64,000 nucleotides of DNA, from NCBI GenBank assembly GCA_038040175.1, contig JBBPIT010000008.1, positions 2,184 through 66,183 of the forward strand, in the 5' to 3' direction. Made by a program: the position numbers and the translations under genes. The DNA is from Pseudomonadota bacterium (lineage in GTDB: Bacteria; Pseudomonadota; Gammaproteobacteria; Burkholderiales; JACQAP01). The notes under the pieces were generated by a model. The model saw nothing but the letters and a program-made list of their open reading frames with translations, did not search any database and was not told the DNA's origin. This document shows positions 1,071 through 63,371 of the stretch, one piece after another (the stretch's first letter is position 1; every line of letters begins with the position of its first letter).

Positions 1071-1352
1071 GCAAATTCTCCTAATTGGGCTTGTACAGCG
1101 GAAATGATACGCAGCCGGTCGCGGCTTGGATGAGTCTCCGGGAAGCTTGCAGACAGGTCAAGCAACCCCTACCGGAGCGGAAAGTCACAAGACAAACGCG
1201 GGATTCAGAAAAACCGGAAAAACCTCGACGCAAGAAGCAATAGTAAATTTCCATACCTTACAGGGAAAGATTGGTATTTCTCTGCGCCCTCTCGCCCCTC
1301 CCTTGCGTACCCCTCAAGGGGGTATTAAAAAGAATACTCTGCGTCAACGCTT

Positions 1353-1877: not shown

Positions 1878-3272
1878 TCAGGTCTTGTTCTTACCGACCA
1901 TGTCCTCGGGCCGGACCCACTGGTCGAACTGTTCCGCGGTGACAAAGCCGAGCTTCACGGCAGCTTCCTTGAGCGTGGTGCCTTCCTGGTAGGCTTTCTT
2001 GGCGATCTGCGCGGCCTTGTCGTAGCCGATGTGCGGATTGAGCGCGGTGACCAGCATCAGCGATTCCCGCACCGACTTTTCGATGCGTTCGCGGTTCGGT
2101 TCGATGCCGACCGCGCAATTGTCGTTGAAGCTCACCGCGCCGTCGGCGAGCAGCCGGACGCTCTGGAGGAAGTTGTGGATGATAACCGGCTTGAACACGT
2201 TCAACTCGAAGTTGCCCATCGAGCCGCCGACGTTGATGACCACGTCATTGCCGAACACCTGGCAGCAAGCCATGGTCAGCGCTTCCGACTGCGTGGGGTT
2301 CACCTTGCCCGGCATGATCGAGCTGCCCGGTTCGTTCTCCGGAATTCTGAGCTCGCCGATACCGCAGCGCGGGCCGGAGGCCAGCCAGCGGATGTCGTTG
2401 GCGATCTTCATCAGCGATGCCGCCAGCGTTTTCAGCGCCCCGTGCGCGTGAACGAGCGCATCGTTGGCCGCCAGCGCCTCGAATTTGTTGCGCGCCGCGA
2501 CGAACGGCAGCCTGGTCGCCTTCCCCAGTTCCTTCGCCACCCGCGCGCCGAACTCCGGATGCGCGTTCAGCCCGGTGCCCACGGCGGTGCCGCCCAGCGC
2601 CATTTCGCACAAGTGCGTCAATGATGCCTGTACGTGGGCGATGCCGTGGTCGAGTTGGGAAACGTAGCCGGAGAATTCCTGCCCGAGGGTCAGCGGAGTG
2701 GCGTCCTGCAGGTGGGTACGGCCGATCTTGATGATGTCGTCGAATGCCTTGGATTTCTGCGCCAGCGTGTCGCGCAACGTCTTCAGAGACGGTACCAGCC
2801 GGTCATGCAACGCCCGCACCGCGGCAACATGCATCGCGGTCGGAAAAACATCGTTGGAGGATTGCCCCTTGTTGACATCGTCGTTCGGGTGCACGAGACG
2901 CTTCTCGCCGCGGCTGCCACCGAGAATTTCCGATGCCCGGTTGGCGAGCACCTCGTTCATGTTCATGTTGGTCTGGGTGCCCGAGCCGGTCTGCCAGACC
3001 ACCAGGGGAAACTCTTCGTCATGCGTCCCGGCGATGACCTCGTCCGCTGCCTGGATGATGGCGTTGCCCTTCTTTGCATCGAGCAGGCCGAGTTCGATGT
3101 TCACCGCAGCGGCGGCGCGCTTCACCAGCGCCAGTGCGCGGATCAGCTCCAATGGCATGCGCTCGCCGGAAATGCGGAAGTTCTGCAGGCTGCGCTGGGT
3201 CGTCGCGCCCCACAGGCGGTCGGCCGGGACTTCGATCTCCCCGAACGTGTCTTTCTCTATCCTGGTTTTCAT
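1878..3272 (-). CDS. fumC: class II fumarate hydratase
   Basis: 464 aa, [32 protein letters not shown]..., with the [16 protein letters not shown] signature loop and full length. Confidence 0.95.
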
Positions 3273-3284
3273 ATTCAGCCCCTA

Positions 3285-3497
3285 AACCAAGGGAAACTCA
3301 TTCAACACGAAGGGTCACGAAGGAAAGGCAAGAAAGGGGCACGAAGGAGAGACAAGGACTGAATATGAACCGAGAGAACGCCAAGGAATATCAGACAAGT
3401 TGGCCTCCGTGCTCCTCGACAATTTCGACTCGTTCCGCCCTGTTTTTCCTTCGTGTGCCTTCGTTTTTCCTTCGTGTCCTTCGTGTTCAACGCGTTT
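3285..3497. repeat. CACGAAGG-arm hairpin element (both arms)
   Basis: The left arm has CACGAAGG at 3306, 3316 and 3340. The right arm has CCTTCGTG at 3448, 3469 and 3478 and ends CCTTCGTGTTCAACGCGTTT. It fills the fumC/SDR intergenic gap. Confidence 0.85.
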
Positions 3498-3502
3498 CAT
3501 CT

Positions 3503-4216
3503 TTACCAGGGGATAGGTTTCTTGTCGCGGAAGAAACCGCCGGTGGGGCCGTCGTGCGGCAGCATCGCCAGCCAAACCGCGGTTTCGGCACCCTGCTCCA
3601 CGCTGCGTGAGGCTCCCGGCCCGCCCATGTCGGTGCGCACCCACCCCGGACACATCGAGTTCACCAGGATATTGTCCCCCTCTACCGCCTTCGCGACCAT
3701 GCGGGTAAGCGCATTGAGCGCCGTTTTCGATACCCGGTATGCCGGAGTGCCGTCGCCCATGTCATCGAGCTGGCCGAGGCCGCTGGACAGGTTCACCACC
3801 CGGCCATAGTGGTTCTTCTGCATCAGCGGCACCAGCGCCCGGCACATGCGCAGCGCGCCGTAAAAATTGGTTTCCAGCGTGGTACGGAAGGTTTCCTCCT
3901 TTTCCTTGAGCACGCTGGTCGAACGGCTATCGATCAGGATGCCGGCATTGTTCACCAGCACGTCCACCCGGCCGTACTCGCCCTCGATGTGCCTGGCGAT
4001 GGCAGCAACGCTGGCCTGATCGGTGACCTCGAGCTGTTGGTGCAAGACGTCGAGTCCTTCCTTCTCCAGTTTCTTCCGGGCCTCCCGGCCCTTCTCTGCG
4101 TCGCGGCTGGTCAGCACCACCCGCAACCCCTGGCGCGCAAGCTGACGGCAGATCTCGTAGCCGATTCCCTTGTTGCCGCCGGTCACCACCGCCAGCCGTT
4201 TGTCCATCGTTGCCAT
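3503..4216 (-). CDS. SDR family oxidoreductase (carbonyl-reductase-like)
   Basis: 237 aa with LAVVTGGNKGIGYE (TGxxxGIG) and the catalytic YRVSK (YxxxK). Confidence 0.85.
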   Translation of the reverse strand: MATMDKRLAVVTGGNKGIGYEICRQLARQGLRVVLTSRDAEKGREARKKLEKEGLDVLHQQLEVTDQASVAAIARHIEGEYGRVDVLVNNAGILIDSRSTSVLKEKEETFRTTLETNFYGALRMCRALVPLMQKNHYGRVVNLSSGLGQLDDMGDGTPAYRVSKTALNALTRMVAKAVEGDNILVNSMCPGWVRTDMGGPGASRSVEQGAETAVWLAMLPHDGPTGGFFRDKKPIPW

Positions 4217-4241
4217 TTTTGCTCCTGAGAACTAGAAAGCT

Positions 4242-4650
4242 AAACGCATTTAACACGAAGGTACACGAAGGAAAGGCAAAAAAGGATCACGAAGGAGAAC
4301 ATAGAGACTGGATATGAACCACCAAGACGTTGAGAATTCATTTCAATACCCCCTTGAGGGGTACGCCGGGAAACCTTCTATGATTGAGTTTTACATAACA
4401 GAGTGACAGCACTTGTGCGACTGCTGCCCTCACCCGCCGCTGCGCGGCGCCCTCTCCCGGAGGGCGAGGGTTTCAGTTGTCCCTCTCCCTCCGGGAGAGG
4501 GGTCGGGGTGAGGGAAGTGTCATGCAGTTACGTTATTCTCAAGAGTTAGAGCTATTTGGTCTACCGGATTTTCGCTGATACCGTCTGCTTCATTGGGTTT
4601 TTCCTTCGTGTGCCTTCTATTTTCCTGTGTACCTTCGTGTTGAATGTGTT
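4242..4650. repeat. CACGAAGG-arm hairpin element carrying a nested REP-like insertion
   Basis: The left terminus AAACGCATTTAACACGAAGG (4242-4261) is the exact reverse complement of the terminus at 48261-48280. The right arm is ...CCTTCGTGTGCCTTC...ACCTTCGTGTTGAATGTGTT. The core is interrupted by the element at 4383-4542. Confidence 0.8.
4383..4542 (+). repeat. REP-like double-hairpin element, copy A (CCCTCACCC...CTCTCCCGGAGGGCGAGGG...CCCTCTCCCTCCGGGAGAGGGG...GGGTGAGGG)
   Basis: By eye, 4419-4542 is identical to the reverse complement of 14501-14624, a 124-bp match. A flanking stretch of about 35 bp is diverged. Confidence 0.85.
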
Positions 4651-4679
4651 GATGGCCGTCCGTCAGGACGGCGTTGCTT

Positions 4680-5828
4680 TCAGGCGCCGAGGCCGGCAAG
4701 CGGATGCTCGTGCGTCTGCCAAGGACTGGCGAAGAAACCCTCGAGCCATTCCGGCGTCACTTCCGCCAACGTCGCCGGCCGCCAGCGCGGGCGCCTGTCC
4801 TTGTCGATCAGCAGCGCGCGGATGCCCTCGGCAAGATCCGGGCGGGCGGCGCAGGACAGCGACGCCACCAACTCGACGCGGAAAACGTCAGCCAGCGAGG
4901 CATGCAGCATGCGCCGATGCAGGGCATGCGACAACGCAGCCGAGCCGGGCGACCCCGCGGCAAGCGTCGCGGCGGCCTTTGACAGCCAAGCGTCCTGCGT
5001 TTTCACCCCGGTGATAGCCGCGGCGATCTCCGGCAGCGTTGCGTATCCGCACAACTCGCCGATCAGGTCGAGATGCTCGCGCAACGGGCCGGGCACCGGA
5101 CGCGCAACCGCGACGCCGCGGAGCACGTCCGTGAGCAGGCGATGACCGTCCGCAGCGTCCGCAGTCCACGGTTGCCGCATCAGGCTTTCCATGACCCGGG
5201 CCTTGTCGGCGTGTGCGATCTGGTAGTCCGCAAACCGCGCGAACAGCGCATCGGCAGCGTTCAACTGGGCACCGGTGAGCGCAAGGAAAAGGCCGCTGCG
5301 GCCCGGTGCGCGGTTGAGCAGCCAGGTACCGCCGATATCGGGATACAGGCCGATGGTGATCTCCGGCATGGCCACGCGCGAGTGCTCGGTGACCACGCGA
5401 TGGCTGGCACCCGCCATCAGCCCCAGGCCGCCTCCCATCACGATCCCGTGCCCCCAGCACAGCACCGGCTTCGGAAAAGTGTGAATCAGGTAATCGAGCC
5501 GGTACTCCCGGGAGAAGAAGGCGAGTGCGTAGGCGTTGCCGCGAATGTCGTCGCGTTGCGCCGACGCATGATGCTCCACCATGGTCCTGTAAAGGTTGTG
5601 AAGGTCGGCGCCTGCGCAAAACACCTTCTCGCCGGCCGCCTCCAGGACCACGAACGCGATGCCGGGATCGGTCGCCCACGCCGACAGGCGCTCGAAGAGC
5701 AGGTCGATCATTTCCAGCGACAGGGAATTCAGCGAATTCTCGACGTTCAGGCGGGCGACGCCCGCGCGTGCGCCGTTGTCCGCTCGACGCTCTTCGAACA
5801 TTACCGGCTGGGTCCTGAGTTCGGTCAT
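4680..5828 (-). CDS. enoyl-CoA hydratase/isomerase family protein (3-hydroxyisobutyryl-CoA hydrolase-like)
   Basis: 382 aa with ...VVLEAAGEKVFCAGADLHNLY...ITIGLYPDIGGTWLL.., showing the crotonase fold and the long C-terminal extension typical of the hydrolase subgroup. Confidence 0.8.
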   Translation of the reverse strand: MTELRTQPVMFEERRADNGARAGVARLNVENSLNSLSLEMIDLLFERLSAWATDPGIAFVVLEAAGEKVFCAGADLHNLYRTMVEHHASAQRDDIRGNAYALAFFSREYRLDYLIHTFPKPVLCWGHGIVMGGGLGLMAGASHRVVTEHSRVAMPEITIGLYPDIGGTWLLNRAPGRSGLFLALTGAQLNAADALFARFADYQIAHADKARVMESLMRQPWTADAADGHRLLTDVLRGVAVARPVPGPLREHLDLIGELCGYATLPEIAAAITGVKTQDAWLSKAAATLAAGSPGSAALSHALHRRMLHASLADVFRVELVASLSCAARPDLAEGIRALLIDKDRRPRWRPATLAEVTPEWLEGFFASPWQTHEHPLAGLGA

Positions 5829-5860
5829 GCAACATTCAAACCTGATACAGAAAAAGTCCG

Positions 5861-5912
5861 GTTAACACGAAGGATCACGAAGGAAAGACGAAGGAACACG
5901 AAGGAAAGCGAA
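5861..5912. repeat. solo CACGAAGG arm
   Basis: The sequence is GTTAACACGAAGGATCACGAAGGAAAGACGAAGGAACACGAAGGAAAG. I found no inverted partner arm before pip. Confidence 0.6.
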
Positions 5913-6041
5913 CTGAACAGGTTGCTGCGATTATACGGGAGCCACTCCGCAACCACCGCAGCCATTGCGGCCCGAGTACCGCGTTTGTGGGAGGGCGGGG
6001 TTTTTGTTATGGTTCGATGAAAGCCCACCAGGACCGATTGC

Positions 6042-7034
6042 ATGGACTACGCCGCCCCAGGAATCCGCACCGAACTTTATCCCGACATAGAGCCGCATCA
6101 GTCCGGCTATCTCAGGCTCGACCAGCGCCATGAGATGTACTGGGAAGTATCGGGAAACGACGACGGCGTGCCGGTGGTGTTCCTGCACGGCGGACCGGGC
6201 GCGGGCGCGAGCCCGATGCACCGGCGTTTCTTCGATCCGGCGCACTATCGCATCGTGATCTTCGACCAACGCGGCGCCGGCCGCTCGCGTCCACACGGCG
6301 AACTCGCCGGCAACACCACCCCGAACCTGATCGCCGATATGGAAAAGCTGCGTGCGCACCTCGGCATCGACAAGTGGATCGTATTCGGAGGGTCATGGGG
6401 CAGCACGCTGGCGCTGGCCTACGGCGAAGCGCATCCGCAACGCTGTATGGCGCTGGTGCTGCGCGGCATCTTTTTGTGCCGCAAGCTGGAGATCGACTGG
6501 TTTCTCTACGGCATGCGCTTGGTCTATCCGGAGGCGTGGAGCAAGTTCGCCGAGTTCGTTCCCGAGGCGGAGCGCAAGGACCTGCTCTCCGCTTACGCGA
6601 AGAGGCTGAACGACCCCGATCCGGAAGTGCACATGCCGGCCGCGCATCAGTGGAGCATCTACGAAGGCTCCTGTTCGACTCTGCTGCCCAGCCCTTCCAC
6701 GGTTGCACACTTTGCCGAAGACATCGTTGCGCTGGGGCTCGCCCGCATAGAGGCGCACTACTTTTCCAACGGCATCTTTCTGGCGGAGAACTCGCTGCTG
6801 GAGAACGCGGGCAGGTTGCGCTCCATTCCCGGAATCATCGTGCAGGGACGCTACGACATGGTGTGTCCGATCGTATCTGCAGACGACCTGCACCGCGCCT
6901 GGCCCGAAGCGCAGTACATCATCGTGCCCGACGCCGGCCACTCGGTCTGGGAACCGGGCATCAGCGCGCGACTGGTGGCGGCGATGGAAAGATTCAAGCG
7001 CGGGTTCGAGGGGCGAACCCCGGGGGCGTGGTGA
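6042..7034 (+). CDS. pip: prolyl aminopeptidase (proline iminopeptidase)
   Basis: 330 aa with ...VVFLHGGPGAG...IVIFDQRGAGRS...WIVFGGSWGSTLAL.., an alpha/beta hydrolase with the GxSxG nucleophile and the Pip N-terminal pattern. Confidence 0.9.
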   Translation: MDYAAPGIRTELYPDIEPHQSGYLRLDQRHEMYWEVSGNDDGVPVVFLHGGPGAGASPMHRRFFDPAHYRIVIFDQRGAGRSRPHGELAGNTTPNLIADMEKLRAHLGIDKWIVFGGSWGSTLALAYGEAHPQRCMALVLRGIFLCRKLEIDWFLYGMRLVYPEAWSKFAEFVPEAERKDLLSAYAKRLNDPDPEVHMPAAHQWSIYEGSCSTLLPSPSTVAHFAEDIVALGLARIEAHYFSNGIFLAENSLLENAGRLRSIPGIIVQGRYDMVCPIVSADDLHRAWPEAQYIIVPDAGHSVWEPGISARLVAAMERFKRGFEGRTPGAW

Positions 7035-14500: not shown

Positions 14501-14661
14501 TTGAGAATAACGTAACTGCATGACACTTCCCTCACCCCGACCCCTCTCCCGGAGGGAGAGGGACAACTGAAACCCTCGCCCTCCGGGAGAGGGCGCCGCG
14601 CAGCGGCGGGTGAGGGCAGCAGTCTCACAAGTGCCGTCACGCTGATATGTAAGACTCAATA
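14501..14661 (-). repeat. REP-like double-hairpin element, copy B (inverted relative to copy A)
   Basis: 14501-14624 is the reverse complement of 4419-4542, identical by eye. 14625-14661 matches the diverged flank of copy A. Confidence 0.85.
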
Positions 14662-14699: not shown

Positions 14700-14780
14700 G
14701 TTTTTTCTCTGTGTCCTCTGTGTCCTCTATGGCTAAAAGGATTCGTTCTTGATCTTCCTTCGTGCTCCTTCGTGGTGAGT
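14700..14780. repeat. TCTGTGTCC x2 tandem plus solo CCTTCGTG arm
   Basis: CTCTGTGTCCTCTGTGTCCTCT occurs at about 14707-14728. CCTTCGTGCTCCTTCGTGGTGAG occurs at 14757-14779, directly downstream of the uxaA-family stop. Confidence 0.6.
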
Positions 14781-16443: not shown

Positions 16444-18171
16444 TTAGTGGGACTCGCGCAGGAGCGGCGTGCCGCTGCCGCCTACCAGGAAATCGAGGTC
16501 CACGCCTTGGTCCGCCTGATTGACGTGGTCGATGTAGATCTTCACGTAGCCCCGGTAGGCCATGGGTTTGGGCGCCTTCCATTTCTTGCGCCGCCTTTCC
16601 AGCTCGGCTTCCGACACGTCGAGGTGCAATTTTCTCTTCGGCACGTCGATCTCGATCATGTCGCCGTCCTGTACCAGCGCCAGCGTTCCGCCTGCCGCCG
16701 CTTCCGGGGCGCTGTGCAGCACCACGGTGCCGTACGCGGTGCCGCTCATGCGCGCATCGGAGATACGCACCATGTCGGTGATGCCCTTTTTCAGGACCTT
16801 GGCCGGCAGCGCAAAGTTTCCGACCTCAGGGAAACCCGGATAACCCTTCGGCCCGCAGTTCTTCAGCACCAGCACGCAAGTTTCGTCCACCTTCAGCTTC
16901 GGATCGTCGATGCGCTTCTTGTAGTCTTCGATGTTCTCGAACACCACGGCGCGGCCGCGATGCTTCATCAGCTTCGGCGTTGCGGCCGAGGGCTTGATCA
17001 CCGCACCGTTGGGCACGAGGTTGCCGCGCAGTACCGCTATGCCGCCCTGCTTCTTGAACGGCTTGTCCACCGGGAAGATCACTTTCGGGTTCCAGTTCCT
17101 GGCGTCCTTGACGTTGTCCCAGAGGCTCTGGCCGTTCACGGTGGGCGCCTTTCTGTGCAGCAGGCCGGCCCTGCCCAGCTCCCTGATCACCACCGGCAGG
17201 CCGCCGGCGTAGTAGAAGTCTTCCATGAGGTACTCGCCGGAGGGCATCAGGTTCACCAGGCAGGGCAGGTCGCGGCCGAGGCGATCCCAGTCATCCAGCG
17301 TGAGCTTGACGCCGATGCGGCCGGCCAGCGCCAGCAGGTGCACCACCGCGTTGGTCGAGCCGCCGATGGCGCCGTTGACACGGATCGCATTCTCGAAGGC
17401 CTGCTTGGTCAGGATCTTCGACATGCGCAGGTCTTCCTTCACCATCTGCACGATCCGCTGCCCCGTCATGTGCGCGAGCACGTAGCGACGCGAATCCACC
17501 GCGGGAATCGCAGCATTGGTGGGCAGCGCCATGCCCAAGGCCTCGGCCATCGACGCCATCGTCGAAGCGGTGCCCATGGTCATGCAATGGCCGGCGGAAC
17601 GCGACATGGCCTGCTCGGCATCGAGCAGGTCTTCGTCGGTCATCTCGCCACGCTTGAGCATTTCCTTGAATTTCCAAACGTGCGTGCCGGAACCGACGGT
17701 CTCGTCGCGCCAGCGGCCGTTGAGCATCGGGCCGCCGGACACCACGACGGTCGGCACATCGCAGGATGCCGCGCCCATCATCAGTGACGGCGTGGTCTTG
17801 TCGCAGCCGGTCAGCAGCACCACGCCGTCGAGCGGATTGGCGCGGATGGATTCCTCGACGTCCATCGACGCCAGGTTGCGGAACAGCATCGCGGTCGGGC
17901 GCATCACCGGCTCGCCCAGCGACATCACCGGGAATTCGAGCGGGAAGCCTCCAGCCTCGTAGACGCCGCGCTTGACGCGCTCGGCGATCACGCGGAAATG
18001 TGCATTACAGGGCGTGAGTTCGGACCAGGTATTGCAGATGCCGATCACCGGACGGTCTTCGAACAAGTGTCGCGGCAGGCCCTGGTTCTTCATCCAGGAC
18101 CGATGCACCATGCTGTCGATCCCCGGTCCGCCGAACCACTCGTAACTACGCAGCTTTTTCCTTGCAGCCAT
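16444..18171 (-). CDS. IlvD/Edd-family dehydratase (pentonate/hexonate dehydratase type)
   Basis: 575 aa with ...RPVIGICNTWSELTPCNAHF...LLTGCDKTTPSLMMGAAS...CMTMGTASTMA.., the IlvD/Edd signature motifs. Confidence 0.85.
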   Translation of the reverse strand: MAARKKLRSYEWFGGPGIDSMVHRSWMKNQGLPRHLFEDRPVIGICNTWSELTPCNAHFRVIAERVKRGVYEAGGFPLEFPVMSLGEPVMRPTAMLFRNLASMDVEESIRANPLDGVVLLTGCDKTTPSLMMGAASCDVPTVVVSGGPMLNGRWRDETVGSGTHVWKFKEMLKRGEMTDEDLLDAEQAMSRSAGHCMTMGTASTMASMAEALGMALPTNAAIPAVDSRRYVLAHMTGQRIVQMVKEDLRMSKILTKQAFENAIRVNGAIGGSTNAVVHLLALAGRIGVKLTLDDWDRLGRDLPCLVNLMPSGEYLMEDFYYAGGLPVVIRELGRAGLLHRKAPTVNGQSLWDNVKDARNWNPKVIFPVDKPFKKQGGIAVLRGNLVPNGAVIKPSAATPKLMKHRGRAVVFENIEDYKKRIDDPKLKVDETCVLVLKNCGPKGYPGFPEVGNFALPAKVLKKGITDMVRISDARMSGTAYGTVVLHSAPEAAAGGTLALVQDGDMIEIDVPKRKLHLDVSEAELERRRKKWKAPKPMAYRGYVKIYIDHVNQADQGVDLDFLVGGSGTPLLRESH

Positions 18172-18193: not shown

Positions 18194-18437
18194 AAACCTC
18201 ATTTACACGAAGGACACGAAGGAAAAACGAAGGGGCACGAGGGAAGGCAAGAAGCCACAAAAGCGATTCGTACGCGATAAAGTCAGGATAAGTTGCGGAC
18301 AGTCGCAAAGTCAGATCACCTTCGAAGCCTGGTAAGTTGGTCATTACCATTCGATCCATTCTCTCTCTGTTCCACTTAATAGTTTTCCTTCGTGTTCCTT
18401 CGTTTTTCCTTCGTGCCCCTTCGTGTTAAACGTCTTT
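18194..18437. repeat. CACGAAGG-arm hairpin element (both arms)
   Basis: ATTTACACGAAGGACACGAAGGAAAAACGAAGGGGCACGAGGG pairs with CCTTCGTGTTCCTTCGTTTTTCCTTCGTGCCCCTTCGTGTTAAACG. It is intercistronic, between a permease gene and the IlvD/Edd gene. Confidence 0.85.
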
Positions 18438-18446
18438 CGCCCTAGA

Positions 18447-19322
18447 TCACTCTTTGACGGCGCCGGTCATGCCGGCGACGTAATACTCGACAAAGAAGGA
18501 ATACATCACCGCCACCGGGAGCGAGCCGACCAGCGCGCCCGCCATCAGCGAGCCCCAGTGATACACGTCGCCCTCGACCAGTTCGGTGATCACCCCCACC
18601 GGGACCGTCTTGTTTTCGGAAGCCGAAATGAAAGTCAGCGCGTAGATGAACTCGTTCCAGGACAGCGTGAACGCAAAGATGCCTGCCGAGATCAGCCCCG
18701 GCACCGCCAGCGGCAGTACGATCCTGGTGAGGATTTGCCAGCGCGTGGCGCCGTCAATCAGCGCGCACTCCTCCAGCTCGAACGGGATCGAGCGGAAGTA
18801 GCCCATCAGCAGCCAGGTGCAGAACGGGATCAAGAACGTCGGATAAGTCAGGATCAACGCCCAGCGCGTGTCGAAAATCCCGAGCTGGAACACCATGGTT
18901 GCCAGCGGTATGAACAGGATGGAAGGCGGAATCAGGTAGGCGAGAAAAATCGCCAGCCCGGTCTGCCGCGATCCCTTGAAGCGCAAGCGCTCGATCGCGT
19001 AGGCGGCGAACACGCTGGCGACCAGCGACACGAAGGTGGACACCACCGATACCAGCACCGTGTTCCACATCCACTCCGGATAGGAGGTATCGAAGAAAAG
19101 TTTCCTGAAGTGCTCCAGCGTCGGGTTGATGACCCAGAAAGGGTTGCCGGTGCGGGACAGCAGTTCCGCGTTCGGCTTGAACGACGTGATCACCATCCAG
19201 TAGAACGGAAACAGCAGCACGACCAGGAAGACGAGCAACGGGATGTAAACCGTCACCCAGCGCCGCGGCAGCGACTCCAGGTATTGCATGCCTTCGCGGG
19301 GCTCAGTGCTCGCCATATGCAC
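18447..19322 (-). CDS. carbohydrate ABC transporter permease
   Basis: 291 aa, multi-TM, with the EAA-type loop ...ECALIDGATRWQILTRIVLPLAVPG. Confidence 0.9.
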   Translation of the reverse strand: MHMASTEPREGMQYLESLPRRWVTVYIPLLVFLVVLLFPFYWMVITSFKPNAELLSRTGNPFWVINPTLEHFRKLFFDTSYPEWMWNTVLVSVVSTFVSLVASVFAAYAIERLRFKGSRQTGLAIFLAYLIPPSILFIPLATMVFQLGIFDTRWALILTYPTFLIPFCTWLLMGYFRSIPFELEECALIDGATRWQILTRIVLPLAVPGLISAGIFAFTLSWNEFIYALTFISASENKTVPVGVITELVEGDVYHWGSLMAGALVGSLPVAVMYSFFVEYYVAGMTGAVKE

Positions 19323-19328
19323 TCGCTG

Positions 19329-19427
19329 AGGAAGGGGCGAGGGGCGAGGGGCGAGGATCGAGGGGGAACCAACGCCTTAGGAGCATTTGAGCATACTCGC
19401 CCCTCGTCCCTCGTCCCTCGCCCCTTA
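19329..19427. repeat. motif-array hairpin element (GCGAGGGG arm / CCCCTCG arm)
   Basis: GGGGCGAGGGGCGAGGGGCGAGGATCGAGGGGG faces CTCGCCCCTCGTCCCTCGTCCCTCGCCCC. It lies between the two permease genes. Confidence 0.75.
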
Positions 19428-23836: not shown

Positions 23837-23925
23837 GGGCCGAGGTGCGAGGGCCGAGGGACGAGGGAAAAGCAATTTAGCCCTTACCCTTCACTCCTTC
23901 ACCCTTCACCCTTCACGCATTTGAA
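23837..23925. repeat. motif-array element (CGAGGG repeats / CCCTTCAC repeats)
   Basis: GAGGGCCGAGGTGCGAGGGCCGAGGGACGAGGG faces CCCTTACCCTTCACTCCTTCACCCTTCACCCTTCAC. The arms are only partly complementary. Confidence 0.5.
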
Positions 23926-30777: not shown

Positions 30778-31083
30778 CTAGAACCGCATCCTGCCAGTGA
30801 GGATGTCTTTCCACATTACCCAGTCCCCGGCAAAACTGTAAAGCGGATACTTGAATGTCGCGGGATGATTCTTCTCGAACAGGTAATGCCCGCTGAAAGC
30901 AAAAGCATAGCCGGTGACAAACGCGGCCAGCAACCACCACCCGTTCAGCATGACGACGCCGGCGACGAACATCGCCAGCCCGATCGAGGTGCCGATGAAG
31001 TGAAGCCGCCGGCTGTTGCGATTGGCGTGCTCGCTCAGATAGAACGGGTAAAAGTCCTTGAACGTGCGGTAGCGGCTTCCCAT
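30778..31083 (-). CDS. DUF962 / Mpo1-like membrane protein
   Basis: 101 aa, MGSRYRTFKDFYPFYLSEHANRNSRRLHFIGTS...FSGHYLFEKNHPATFKYP. Confidence 0.75.
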   Translation of the reverse strand: MGSRYRTFKDFYPFYLSEHANRNSRRLHFIGTSIGLAMFVAGVVMLNGWWLLAAFVTGYAFAFSGHYLFEKNHPATFKYPLYSFAGDWVMWKDILTGRMRF

Positions 31084-31091
31084 GACAGAAC

Positions 31092-31181
31092 TCGTGGTTC
31101 GTGGCTCGTGGTTCGTGGTTCGTGGTTCGTGGTTCGTGGTTCGTGGTTCGTGGCTCGTGGTTCGTGGTTCGTGGTTCGTTG
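31092..31181. repeat. 7-bp tandem repeat TCGTGGY x12 (+ partial)
   Basis: Direct read: TCGTGGT TCGTGGC TCGTGGT x6 TCGTGGC TCGTGGT x3 TCGTTG. The ORFs across it (VRGSWF periodicity) are artefacts. Confidence 0.9.
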
Positions 31182-31338
31182 AAAAATCTAGCTTTGTTTT
31201 TTTGTGATTGCTCGTATGAAACGCTGTTGATCCTGTTTCGCCTTCGCGTCCTTTATTTTTCCCTTTGCGCCCTTCGCGTCAACGCCTTAACGCCGGTCAT
31301 CGGCCGGCTGCATTTCGCTGAGTCCCGAGCCCTGATTC

Positions 31339-31996: not shown

Positions 31997-32160
31997 TCAC
32001 CACGAAGGCACGAAGACACGAAGAAAACAGGAAGGTTGGCGAAAACCGGGACCTCCCAGCTTGTTCGCGCATTGCAGCAGCGCCTCTGGCGATCACCGGT
32101 ATCGCATCACAATTATGCTAAGAATTCGAGTTCCTTCGTGTCTTCGTGCCTTCGTGGTGA
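31997..32160. repeat. CACGAAGG-arm hairpin element (both arms), intercistronic
   Basis: TCACCACGAAGGCACGAAGACACGAAG pairs with CTTCGTGTCTTCGTGCCTTCGTGGTGA. It lies between otnK and otnC. Confidence 0.8.
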
Positions 32161-48094: not shown

Positions 48095-48280
48095 AACCCA
48101 GGGAAACTCTTTCAACACGAAGGGCACGAAGGAAGGGCAAGAAAGGATCACGAAGGAAATTCGAAACGATGCACGCACTTTGATCGCGATGCCCACGAGG
48201 CACTTCGAATCTACTCGACCTTTCGCCTTCCTTCGTGCGACTTTGTTTTTTCCTTCGTGTCCTTCGTGTTAAATGCGTTT
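48095..48280. repeat. CACGAAGG-arm hairpin element (both arms) between rpmA and obgE
   Basis: The left end AAACCCAGGGAAACTCTTTCAACACGAAGGGCACGAAGGAAGGGCAAGAAAGGATCACGAAGG is near-identical to the left end at 3285. The right end is CCTTCGTGTCCTTCGTGTTAAATGCGTTT. Confidence 0.85.
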
Positions 48281-60257: not shown

Positions 60258-60283
60258 GACGCAAAGACGCAAAGGCGCAAAGT
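60258..60283. repeat. solo CGCAAAG arm
   Basis: The sequence is GACGCAAAGACGCAAAGGCGCAAAG. It is a variant of the 63222-63371 element arm. Confidence 0.55.
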
Positions 60284-63221: not shown

Positions 63222-63371
63222 CAACGCAAAGGCGCAAAGAACGTAAAGAAAGGCAAGAAAGTTACGGTCAAAATACTGGTCGATAGTTATTCCGAATGCC
63301 GGCCTATCCTTGTGCGCATCTAATTTTCGATTCCTTTGCGGCCTTTGCGCTCTTTGCGCCTTTGCGTTGAG
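63222..63371. repeat. hairpin element, CGCAAAGG-arm variant (both arms)
   Basis: CAACGCAAAGGCGCAAAGAACGTAAAGAAAGGCAAGAAAG faces CCTTTGCGGCCTTTGCGCTCTTTGCGCCTTTGCGTTGAG. It has the same architecture as the CACGAAGG elements and the same internal GGCAAGAAAG. Confidence 0.8.

What the first reader, a model, noticed from the sequence alone, without database searches (positions are those of the whole stretch)
3285..4650. Family of hairpin elements whose ~45-50-bp arms are arrays of the octamer CACGAAGG around non-conserved cores
Two-armed copies lie at 3285-3497, 4242-4650, 18194-18437, 31997-32160 and 48095-48280, with a CGCAAAGG variant at 63222-63371. Solo arms lie at 5861-5912, 14757-14779 and 60258-60283. 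Each arm has 3-4 CACGAAGG units spaced by 2-16 nt, often with an internal GGCAAGAAAGG. The opposite arm is the reverse complement (CCTTCGTG units). Termini are highly conserved between copies: 4242-4261 AAACGCATTTAACACGAAGG is the exact reverse complement of 48261-48280, and the left ends at 3285 and 48095 share AAACC.AGGGAAACTC.TTCAACACGAAGG. The 60-140-bp cores between the arms share little or no similarity. That is atypical for MITEs, where whole-element conservation is usual, and also for simple REPs. All copies are intergenic. They create spurious low-complexity ORFs in the track (HEGHEGK.., FVSFVFNAF..). I cannot name this family.
Basis: seen in the sequence. Interest (0 to 1): 0.6.

Follow-up and report, generated by a model that had tools for sequence, protein, structure and literature searches.

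The report
Gene-less copies of nuclease mini-cassettes
The CACGAAGG hairpins are real, and they are most likely empty copies of a tiny, barely described selfish DNA cassette whose complete form carries one small nuclease gene between the same repeat-built arms; they matter because they fill gaps between genes in many bacterial phyla and drive local deletions and inversions.

Summary
CACGAAGG occurs 33 times in the window against 2.6 expected. The genome holds 20 two-armed elements and 21 solo arms. All examined copies are intergenic, their cores are unique, and their tips are conserved.

The arms are not specific to this lineage. The same word arrays form hairpins across many phyla.

In relatives, arms with the same words and the same two tip types (GAAACGCGnnAAC and AACCTCTCTTAAC) bracket a 129-aa GxxExxY gene (Pfam PDDEXK_3). 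Its E/D/ExK residues are invariant. This genome has three such cassettes with sister words. One has arms identical to window 31997-32160.

I therefore read the finding as gene-less derivatives of a repeat-armed nuclease mini-cassette. The general word is C-R-C-R-R-A-G-G, and the purine-rich arm comes first in 52 of 53 pairs.

Comparison with relatives shows:
- empty spacers in one relative;
- other word families at 14 of 14 of the same spacers in another;
- core inversion and core replacement;
- a gene deletion between two elements.

Mobilisation by the nuclease is inferred, not shown. No target duplication, orientation bias or gene remnant was found in the cores. The literature records such paired repeats only as putative regulator sites.

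The parts
3285..3497 (.). Two-armed CACGAAGG element between fumC (1878-3272, -) and an SDR gene (3503-4216, -). Left arm about 3285-3350 (T-type tip AAACTCATTCAAC), unique core, right arm about 3446-3497 (G-type tip, rc AAACGCGTTGAAC).
   Evidence: As RNA it folds to -87.7 kcal/mol, z -6.2. It is absent from the 37-nt orthologous spacer of G001 and replaced by a CGCAGAG element in G002.
4242..4650 (.). Two-armed CACGAAGG element between the SDR gene and an enoyl-CoA hydratase gene (4680-5828, -). Its core carries two nested foreign repeats, at 4326-4366 and 4383-4542.
   Evidence: It is absent in G001. G002 has a CACAGAGG element at the same place. In G013 it has fused with the 3285 element, with loss of the SDR gene.
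5861..5912 (+). Solo left arm with 4 units. It is the remnant of a two-armed element.
   Evidence: G013 has both arms at this site. G000 lacks about 2.4 kb that G001, G002 and G013 all have to the right of the arm.
14700..14779 (-). Two stacked right arms. An inner CACAGAGG-type arm lies at 14700-14735 (tip CTATG|GCTAA). An outer TCAC-type CACGAAGG arm lies at 14755-14779 (tip CGTG|GTGAG).
   Evidence: The stacking indicates a nested insertion.
18194..18437 (.). Two-armed CACGAAGG element between an ilvD-like dehydratase gene (16444-18171, -) and an ABC permease gene (18447-19322, -).
   Evidence: RNA fold -92.7 kcal/mol, z -6.0. At the same spacer G001 is empty (28 nt), G002 has a CACAGAGG element and G013 has a CGCGGAGG element. 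The cores are unrelated although the flanks are 96% identical.
31997..32160 (.). Two-armed element of the sister subfamily TCAC|CACGAAGG CACGAAGA CACGAAGAAA.
   Evidence: Arms are 97% complementary. They are identical over 31 and 26 nt to the arms that bracket the GxxExxY gene at G000 C43:10029-10379.
48095..48280 (.). Two-armed CACGAAGG element downstream of the rpmA terminator and upstream of the obg-like gene start.
   Evidence: RNA fold -70.3 kcal/mol, z -5.8. G013 has orthologous tips and arms but an unrelated core.
60258..60283 (+). Solo left arm of the CGCAAAG type (CGCAAAGA CGCAAAGG CGCAAAG).
63222..63371 (.). Two-armed CGCAAAGG element, with tips CCCAA|CGCAAAGG and CTTTGCG|TTGAG.
   Evidence: (I16, 93% complementary). 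The same word and tip type bracket GxxExxY genes in G019, G021 and G016.
19332..19426 (.). Short hairpin of another word family (GGGGCGAGG x3 / CCCTCGxCC x3) between two ABC permease genes.
   Evidence: (I12).
31078..31189 (-). Tandem array (TCGTGGT)n, about 14 copies, equal to (ACCACGA)n on the other strand. It resembles the CACGARC arms around a 23S_rRNA_IVP gene at G000 C18:10695-11009.
   Evidence: (D1).
23843..23916 (.). Adjacent arrays GAGGGCCGAGGGACGAGGG and (CCTTCAC)n, belonging to other word families.

Best explanation
The CACGAAGG hairpins are gene-less copies of a family of repeat-armed mini-cassettes.

Anatomy of the complete cassette (about 500 bp):
- a left array of 3-4 purine-rich words of the form C-R-C-R-R-A-G-G at a 9-11-nt period;
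- a short leader, in which the last word plus AA supplies a Shine-Dalgarno-like GAAGGA or GGAGGA;
- one 125-130-aa gene for a GxxExxY protein, a minimal PD-(D/E)XK nuclease (Pfam PDDEXK_3);
- the reverse-complement array.

Shown:
- The window's elements share words, spacing and both tip types with such cassettes in relatives.
- They are multi-copy at unrelated intergenic sites.
- They are present or absent between related species.
- They act as substrates for deletion and inversion.

Inferred:
- The nuclease binds the word arrays. At one word per helical turn, the words lie on one face of the DNA, in inverted sets.
- The nuclease cuts at or near the tips, or on the extruded hairpin. This maintains or moves its own cassette and, in trans, the gene-less copies.
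- New copies land preferentially in resident hairpins. That would explain why different word families occupy the same spacers in different species.
- In this genome and its sister the cognate gene has been lost, and the roughly 20 copies are decaying.
- When transcribed inside operons the elements form stems of about 50 bp, which probably act as RNase III or processing sites, like the intervening sequences of 23S rRNA.
For: Real family:
- 33 octamers against 2.6 expected.
- 20 paired elements plus 21 solo arms in the genome.
- The conserved arm reaches 21 nt beyond the words, with two tip types.

Same arms around a nuclease gene:
- G004:C46, G027:C31, G009:C166, G018:C232, G006:C148 and G019:C2 (= L034) have AACACGAAGGnnCACGAAGG arms flanking a 129-aa GxxExxY ORF. 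The 5' tip is GAAACGCGnnAAC and the 3' tip is GTTAAGAGAGGTT. These are the two tip types of the gene-less copies.
- Trichlorobacter L037 has (AACACGAAGG)x8 directly before a GxxExxY gene.
- G000's own three GxxExxY genes and four 23S_rRNA_IVP genes are all bracketed by inverted word arrays. The C43 cassette has the arms of window 31997-32160.
- Most of the 63 metagenome relatives inspected (48-76% identity) show the same architecture in diverse contexts.

An active enzyme is likely:
- PF13366 matches at E 2.8e-39.
- E29, D69, E79 and K81 are invariant in 44 sequences.
- The structure model has pLDDT 95, and its nearest solved folds are Cas4 SSO0001 and lambda exonuclease.

Co-occurrence in 41 relatives:
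- Both arms and gene in 12 genomes, arms only in 3, gene only in 8, neither in 18.
- Outside the genus, only G027 has either, and it has both.
- The dominant gene-less family of a genome matches the arms of its cassette at the ACAD|QOR locus. G002 has CACAGAGG; G004, G009, G018, G019 and G027 have CACGAAGG.

Dynamics:
- 8 of 13 orthologous spacers are empty in G001, which has no GxxExxY gene.
- There is whole-element turnover at two G013 sites and at all 14 G002 sites.
- Nested or stacked arms occur.
- The core is inverted at C3:34106 and replaced at window 48095.
- The SDR gene is deleted between two elements in G013.

Polarity: the purine-rich arm comes first in 52 of 53 paired arrays.
Against: - There is no direct evidence that the nuclease moves anything.
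- The six CACGAAGG cassettes found in relatives sit at one orthologous locus, so they represent one old insertion, not six.
- The protein tree follows locus, not word. Words drift by A/G transitions within a locus clade. The word-to-protein match therefore need not reflect binding specificity.
- G000 and G013 keep about 20 copies without a cognate gene.
- Cores contain no detectable remnant of the gene, so derivation by internal deletion is not shown.
- No target-site duplication and no conserved target were seen.
- Elements with one G-type and one T-type tip (about 12 of 18) are not significantly more common than chance.
- Arms are only slightly better conserved than cores between G000 and G013: 78-86% against 75%, with coding flanks at 90-96%.
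- Cassettes with unrelated cargo (23S_rRNA_IVP four-helix-bundle proteins) have the same arm design. The mobility function could therefore lie elsewhere.
Confidence: 0.58

Rival explanations
1. The arms are a generic cassette holder or landing pad, moved or rebuilt by an unidentified trans-acting host or mobile function. GxxExxY, 23S_rRNA_IVP and DUF559 genes would then be interchangeable selfish cargo that settled in the exchangeable core. The gene-less hairpins would be the primary element.
For: - Three unrelated cargo types share the arm design (earlier notes).
- Cores are hypervariable. They can be replaced with the arms kept, and they host other repeats.
- Cores contain no gene remnants.
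- Gene-less copies outnumber gene-bearing ones by roughly 50 to 3 in G000.
Against: - No candidate trans-acting enzyme emerged.
- Within the order sample, arms and the GxxExxY gene co-occur, and only G027 outside the genus has either.
- The catalytic residues of the nuclease are invariant.
- The dominant gene-less family of a genome matches its resident cassette.
Confidence: 0.17
2. These are host-selected structural or regulatory elements. They could be long RNA hairpins that terminate, insulate or process operon transcripts. Alternatively they could be paired arrays that bind a global regulator, as proposed for Geobacter metallireducens.
For: - The position is always intergenic, often inside operons.
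- Folds are very stable, z about -6.
- The purine-first polarity is strict, 52 of 53.
- The same spacers are occupied in three species.
- Aklujkar et al. 2009 annotated such pairs as putative regulator sites (PMC2700814).
- Solo arrays sit directly before ORF starts in viral contigs.
Against: - G001 has short empty spacers at 8 of 13 sites with the same flanking genes.
- The flanking genes have no common function.
- There is no orientation bias relative to transcription.
- Sequence constraint is weak.
- Word families are swapped wholesale between close relatives.
- Distribution within one genus is patchy, 0 to 65 arms per genome.
Confidence: 0.13
3. These are REPIN-like elements mobilised by one of the genome's REP-associated tyrosine transposase-like (Y1_Tnp) proteins.
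For: - G000 has 10 PF01797 loci.
- REPINs also have two conserved inverted arms and a less conserved spacer.
- Those genes are themselves flanked by short tandem unit arrays.
Against: - The Y1_Tnp genes are flanked by a different inverted repeat (GGGGTCAGGTCTTG...) and by different units, not by CACGAAGG.
- The arms are direct word arrays. They are not short palindromes with a conserved 5' tetranucleotide.
- Only 1 of 114 foreign loci with the arm has such a gene nearby, no more than chance would give.
Confidence: 0.06
4. This is an ordinary MITE mobilised by a DDE transposase whose insertion sequence shares the terminal inverted repeats.
For: Inverted ends of about 55 nt with sub-terminal repeated motifs resemble multi-site transposase ends such as those of IS21, Tn7 and Mu. 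The element is also multi-copy and intergenic.
Against: - There is no target-site duplication.
- Cores are unique.
- No long element with these ends exists in the genome. The one 2.2-kb pair examined is two separate elements flanking a host gene.
- The only genes found between such arms are GxxExxY or IVP genes.
Confidence: 0.04

Closest known systems
Paired tandem-repeat 'putative global regulator binding sites' of Geobacter metallireducens (Aklujkar et al. 2009, PMC2700814)
   Same: - Intergenic pairs of sites lie on opposite strands.
- Each site has 3-5 tandem hepta- to nonanucleotide repeats.
- The distance between partners is variable.
- Several classes occur per genome.
- Class 2 has the consensus TCTCCGTS, the complement of CACGGAGA. 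This is a word of the C-R-C-R-R-A-G-G series seen here.
   Different: - They were interpreted as regulator sites.
- No link was made to a nuclease gene, to gene-less versus gene-bearing copies, or to presence/absence between species.
- The CACGAAGG family and its tips are not described.
REPIN-RAYT systems (REP doublets and REP-associated tyrosine transposases)
   Same: - Many short non-autonomous hairpin copies accompany one or a few protein-coding partners per genome.
- Two conserved inverted arms flank a less conserved spacer.
- The elements are intergenic.
- Inheritance is largely vertical, with a patchy distribution.
   Different: - The partner here is a PD-(D/E)XK nuclease gene sitting inside the arms, not an HUH Y1 transposase.
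- The arms are direct arrays of 8-nt words, not short palindromes.
- The spacers are completely unique.
ORF-bearing intervening sequences (IVS) of bacterial 23S rRNA (Leptospira, Coxiella), with 23S_rRNA_IVP proteins
   Same: - A small ORF or nothing lies between long inverted ends that pair in the transcript.
- The same genome has four 23S_rRNA_IVP genes bracketed by inverted word arrays.
- Processing of the stem by RNase III is the likely fate.
   Different: - The elements here lie between protein genes, not in rRNA.
- The cargo of this family is GxxExxY.
- RNase III cleavage was not tested.
Heptamer SSR arrays (GGGAATC)n of Xanthomonas and Nostoc (Rehm et al. 2015, PMC4692102)
   Same: - Short-unit arrays are strongly enriched in intergenic regions.
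- They lie close to the neighbouring ORF ends.
- They occur mostly between co-oriented genes.
   Different: - They were studied as G-quadruplex formers.
- The units are 7 nt and G-rich.
- No cassette gene or tip conservation was reported.
- Those loci were reported as more conserved than controls, whereas here the loci turn over.
MITEs and eukaryotic foldback elements
   Same: - Non-autonomous copies are defined by inverted ends.
- Foldback elements also have ends built from short tandem repeats around variable centres.
   Different: There is no target-site duplication, no DDE transposase partner and no shared internal sequence.

Membership tests
Repeat-armed GxxExxY mini-cassette class (gene-less derivative) | Two inverted arrays of 3-4 short words at about a 10-nt period, with the purine-rich array on the 5' side | tested here: met
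   All 20 CACGAAGG pairs are purine-first, as are 52 of 53 paired arrays in the unbiased census.
Repeat-armed GxxExxY mini-cassette class (gene-less derivative) | The same words and the same tips occur around a GxxExxY (TIGR04256 / PF13366) gene somewhere | tested here: met
   - The gene-bearing copies are at G004:C46, G027:C31, G009:C166, G018:C232, G006:C148 and L034.
- The nhmmer profile of those cassettes matches the arms of all 20 G000 elements.
- The arms of window 31997-32160 equal those of the G000 C43 cassette.
Repeat-armed GxxExxY mini-cassette class (gene-less derivative) | Cores derive from the cassette gene by internal deletion | tested here: not met
   The nhmmer matches stop at the arms. 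A six-frame hmmsearch of the cores scores no better than shuffled cores.
Repeat-armed GxxExxY mini-cassette class (gene-less derivative) | The nuclease binds or cuts its own arrays and mobilises copies | not testable with these tools
   Only indirect evidence is available: invariant catalytic residues and co-occurrence.
MITE (DDE-transposase dependent) | Target-site duplication flanking the inverted ends | tested here: not met
   No duplication appears in the 20 copies or at 8 filled-versus-empty comparisons.
MITE (DDE-transposase dependent) | Conserved internal sequence and a full-length IS with the same ends | tested here: not met
   Cores are unique. No transposase lies between arms.
REP/REPIN with RAYT | Each arm is a short imperfect palindrome, and the RAYT gene is flanked by the same repeat | tested here: not met
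   The arms are direct word arrays. The 10 Y1_Tnp loci are flanked by other repeats. There is no enrichment near arms.
Integron attC sites | RYYYAAC / GTTRRRY core sites, arranged in cassette arrays next to an integrase | tested here: not met
   Some tips fit GTTRRRY by chance (GTTGAAC, GTTAAAC), but sister families end in GTGGCTA or GCGGTGA. The flanking genes are syntenic core-metabolism genes, not cassettes.
Rfam RNA families | A match to a curated covariance model | tested here: not met
   No relevant match at E <= 1 in window 3000-6200.
Intrastrand triplex repeats (BoxC / TMECO, Holder et al. 2015) | Homopurine/homopyrimidine mirror repeats able to form an intramolecular triplex | not tested
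   Only the outline of the paper was read. The words here are interrupted by C at positions 1 and 3, so a triplex seems unlikely. This is inference.

The most novel reading that the evidence does not exclude
GxxExxY proteins may be the enzymes of an undescribed, cross-phylum class of minimal mobile elements of about 0.5 kb.

On this reading:
- A PD-(D/E)XK nuclease recognises inverted arrays of its own 8-nt word.
- It propagates itself and gene-less hairpins without a transposase, integrase or target duplication.
- New copies home into resident hairpins, so word families replace one another at fixed intergenic sites.
- The hairpin centres behave as exchangeable slots.

This would account for much of the unexplained paired tandem-repeat DNA between genes in soil and sediment bacteria.
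Probability: 0.35. Interest if true: 0.85.

Novelty: new variant of a known kind. Interest (0 to 1): 0.62.

Why it matters
Paired short-tandem-repeat hairpins occupy many intergenic gaps in environmental bacteria. In the literature I could search they have been read as regulator sites, quadruplex formers or simple repeats.

Tying one abundant family to a single conserved nuclease gene turns an unexplained sequence class into a testable enzyme-substrate pair. The same words and tips occur in gene-bearing and gene-less copies, and the gene co-occurs with the arms across genomes.

The comparisons also show concrete consequences for the host:
- loss of a dehydrogenase gene by recombination between two elements;
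- a 2.4-kb deletion ending in an arm;
- inversion and replacement of hairpin centres;
- wholesale replacement of one word family by another at the same 14 spacers between species about 90% identical in their genes.

For annotation, these elements create spurious low-complexity ORFs and probably break draft assemblies.

Tried and rejected
**Databases and literature**
- Rfam search of 3000-6200 at E <= 1 gave nothing relevant.
- Full-text searches for the octamer and for 16-18-nt arm strings returned only primer hits in unrelated papers.
- 'GxxExxY' occurs in 3 papers, none about these elements.

**Candidate partner enzymes and origins**
- A 2.2-kb pair of arms in L062, taken as a candidate transposon, proved to be two elements flanking an acyl-CoA dehydrogenase gene.
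- RAYT link: 10 Y1_Tnp loci have other flanking repeats. Only 1 of 114 foreign arm loci has such a gene nearby.
- Cores as filler copied from elsewhere: no BLAST hits.
- Cores as decayed nuclease genes: no signal above shuffles.
- Cores as self-complementary stems: mean z about -0.6, with only a few near -3.
- Integron attC reading: rejected on tips and context.

**Insertion features**
- No target-site duplication or target motif was found.
- Orientation relative to host transcription: about 5-6 copies are co-oriented and 4-5 are opposite.
- An excess of elements with one tip of each type was not significant.

**Evolution at orthologous sites**
- In-situ descent of G000 and G002 elements: orthologous cores score no higher than non-orthologous ones.
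- The source of the replaced G013 core was not found in G000.

**Tools and structure**
- The sequence search of the PDB was empty.
- The fold search gave only weak PD-(D/E)XK neighbours.
Full report
**1. The observation**

Window 3100-4800 shows two hairpin elements exactly as described.

- CACGAAGG and its complement occur 33 times in the window against 2.63 expected, and no shuffle reached 33.
- The window's genome is 3.78 Mb in 129 contigs at 62% G+C. It holds 378 octamers, 61 arms with two or more units, 20 two-armed elements of 150-390 bp and 21 solo arms.
- In every pair the CACGAAGG arm comes first.
- Conservation runs about 21 nt beyond the first octamer. The ends come in two types: AAAC(C)TCTTTCAAC and AAACGCGTTCAAC.
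- Cores match neither each other nor anything else in the genome. The exceptions are two unrelated repeats nested in the 4242-4650 core.
- Cores have 48% G+C. Their purine content grades from 0.8 in the left arm to 0.2 in the right arm.
- The neighbouring genes are ordinary: fumarase, an SDR, an enoyl-CoA hydratase, dehydratases and ABC permeases.
- As RNA the elements fold at -70 to -93 kcal/mol, z about -6.

**2. Distribution**

An exact 20-nt arm pattern hit more than 114 loci in one-genome-per-species contigs. The hits span Acidobacteriota, Chloroflexota, Planctomycetota, Gemmatimonadota, several proteobacterial classes, Streptomyces and others. Almost all are hairpins with arms of CACGAAG-type words around variable centres, and some are nested.

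Within the window's genus the pattern is patchy. It occurs in 15 of 41 relatives, at 0 to 65 arms per genome. Rfam and full-text sequence searches found nothing.

**3. Orthologous loci**

I compared the sites of 14-16 elements in three relatives.

- **G001** (flanks about 87% identical). It has short empty spacers of 15-40 nt at 8 of 13 sites. Arms and core are therefore gained or lost together.
- **G013** (92-96% identical).
  - It shares most elements with alignable cores.
  - One core is inverted (C3:34106).
  - One core is replaced although tips and arms are orthologous (window 48095-48280).
  - Two sites carry elements of another word, CGCAGAGG and CGCGGAGG, with unrelated cores.
  - G013 also lacks the SDR gene. 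The two elements that flank it in the window have fused there.
- **G000 solo arm.** The arm at 5861-5912 is what remains after a 2.4-kb deletion in this genome.
- **G002** (about 90% identical).
  - It has none of the strict CACGAAGG arms.
  - At all 14 sites it has an element of the same build but another word, mostly TAGC|CACAGAGG.
  - Its cores score no better against the orthologous G000 cores than against non-orthologous ones.

All the words seen differ only by A/G at positions 2, 4 and 5. The general unit is therefore C-R-C-R-R-A-G-G.

**4. The partner gene**

I first tested REP-associated transposases.

- The genome has ten Y1_Tnp loci, but these are flanked by other repeats.
- They are not enriched near arms elsewhere.

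Notes from earlier agents of this scan pointed to small cassettes with a GxxExxY nuclease or a 23S_rRNA_IVP gene between repeat arms. I tested this directly.

- The genome has three GxxExxY genes and four IVP genes. Every one is bracketed by inverted word arrays.
- The cassette at C43:10029-10379 has arms identical to those of window 31997-32160.
- Crossing the arm positions with the gene positions shows GxxExxY genes flanked by the strict CACGAAGG arms in G004, G027, G009, G018, G006 and G019 (sequences).
- Their 5' tip is GAAACGCGnnAAC and their 3' tip is GTTAAGAGAGGTT. These are the two tip types of the gene-less copies.
- A DNA profile of these cassettes matches the arms of all 20 G000 elements, but nothing in the cores.
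- Trichlorobacter has eight tandem AACACGAAGG units directly before such a gene.
- Sixty-three metagenomic relatives at 48-76% identity mostly show the same design, in many contexts.

The protein:

- It matches PF13366 at E 2.8e-39.
- E29, D69, E79 and K81 are invariant in 44 sequences.
- It models at pLDDT 95. Cas4 SSO0001 and lambda exonuclease are the nearest solved folds, with weak matches.

**5. Limits of the link**

- The six CACGAAGG cassettes all sit at one orthologous locus, between an acyl-CoA dehydrogenase and a quinone oxidoreductase. They count as one old insertion.
- G000 has a gene-less CACGAAG element at that locus.
- The protein tree follows locus. Within a locus clade the words drift (CGCAAAG, CGCAGAG, CGCGGAG, CACAGAG). 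The word-to-protein match may therefore be simple linkage.
- Cores hold no gene remnants.
- No target duplication was found.
- There is no orientation bias relative to transcription.
- Arms are barely more conserved than cores between G000 and G013.

Points in favour:

- Co-occurrence in 41 relatives is 12 genomes with both, 3 with arms only, 8 with the gene only and 18 with neither. The only genome outside the genus with either has both.
- G001 has no GxxExxY gene and mostly empty or decayed sites.
- The dominant gene-less family of a genome matches the arms of its resident cassette at the dehydrogenase/oxidoreductase locus.

**6. Mechanism**

Shown:

- These are multi-copy, gained-or-lost hairpin inserts.
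- They share words and tips with nuclease cassettes.
- They recombine, producing a deletion, an inversion and fused elements.
- They nest in one another (G000 C53:13027; window 14700-14780; the G002 locus orthologous to G000 C34:18212-18370; L088, L095, L114).

Inferred:

- The nuclease binds the phased words and acts at the tips or on the extruded hairpin.
- It thereby maintains or moves its cassette and the gene-less copies.
- New copies land in resident hairpins, giving family replacement at fixed spacers.
- The purine-first rule holds in 52 of 53 pairs. It probably reflects the last word plus AA serving as the ribosome-binding site of the cassette gene. In viral contigs, solo arrays sit directly before ORF starts.
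- In this genome and G013 the cognate gene is gone and the family is decaying.
- In operon transcripts the 50-bp stems are likely processing sites, like rRNA intervening sequences.

**7. What is known**

- Aklujkar et al. 2009 annotated paired tandem octa- and heptanucleotide sites in Geobacter metallireducens as putative global-regulator binding sites. One class, TCTCCGTS, is the complement of a word of this series (PMC2700814).
- Rehm et al. 2015 studied heptamer arrays in Xanthomonas as quadruplex formers (PMC4692102).
- Neither paper links the repeats to a gene.
- 'GxxExxY' appears in three papers only in passing.
- REPIN-RAYT systems and ORF-bearing 23S rRNA intervening sequences are the closest functional analogues. 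They differ in enzyme, arm design or location.

**8. Verdict**

It is best filed as a gene-less family of the repeat-armed GxxExxY mini-cassette class.

- Membership by architecture and shared tips is well supported.
- The mobility mechanism is open.
- Other agents of this scan reached the same class from other windows.
- This report adds three things for the CACGAAGG family:
  - the cognate cassette;
  - the two tip types;
  - the orthologous-site evidence for family turnover, core exchange and host gene loss.

Noticed in passing
G000 contigs C33:11893-12807, C2:33539-34417, C16:15311-16228, C12:59048-59977, C44:24480-25415, C24:47172-47927 (outside the window): Ten Y1_Tnp (IS200-like, about 300 aa, MARPLRIEYPGAxYHV) loci. 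Each gene is bracketed by an inverted GGGGTCAG(G/T)(T/C)CTT... sequence. Outside that lie tandem arrays of short units containing GGGGTCA / TGACCCC (for example TGACCCCATTGTT and AAACGAAGGGGTCA). This may be a second system that builds short arrays at its ends.
   Followed up: partly
window 1305-1345 and 4326-4366; also G000 C10:63001-63032, G013 locus L169, G002 loci L144, L149, L150: A small palindromic repeat (GAATTC)TTTCAATACCCCCTTGAGGGGTAC has many copies in the genome. It repeatedly sits inside or at the tip of word arrays, between two words, as if it targets them.
   Followed up: partly
window 4383-4542 and 14501-14660: A 160-nt repeat, 97% identical, in inverted orientation. It contains CCCTCTCCCGGAGGG(C/A)GAGGG hairpins. 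One copy is nested in the core of the 4242-4650 element. Further copies occur on C32 and other contigs.
   Followed up: no
window 3503-4216 versus G013:C210: The SDR gene is missing in the sister species G013. The two hairpin elements that flank it in the window have fused into one there, showing that the elements mediate gene loss.
   Followed up: yes
window 5912-6040 versus G001, G002, G013: This genome lacks about 2.4 kb that all three relatives carry between the hydratase gene and the alpha/beta hydrolase gene. The deletion ends in the hairpin and leaves the solo arm.
   Followed up: partly
window 48095-48280 versus G013:C128:990-1330: Tips and arms are orthologous and the flanks are 93-95% identical, yet the cores are completely unrelated. 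The G013 core has no match in G000.
   Followed up: partly
viral contigs L302-L308: Solo arrays such as CCACGAAGAACACGAAGGAACACGAAGGAAAAAGA lie directly before the ATG of phage ORFs, with no partner arm in the next 300 nt. They may serve as ribosome-binding regions. This also shows that phages carry the words.
   Followed up: no
G000 C18:10400-11300, C103:6100-6767, C3:6200-6900, C102:450-1200: Four 23S_rRNA_IVP (four-helix-bundle) genes are bracketed by inverted arrays of 7-nt words (CACGARC, GTGAAGG, GTGAGGC, GGATGAAGG). [quoted passage not shown]
   Followed up: partly
window 31078-31189: About 14 tandem TCGTGGT heptamers abut the start of a minus-strand gene. No clear partner arm was seen within 300 nt.
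   Followed up: no
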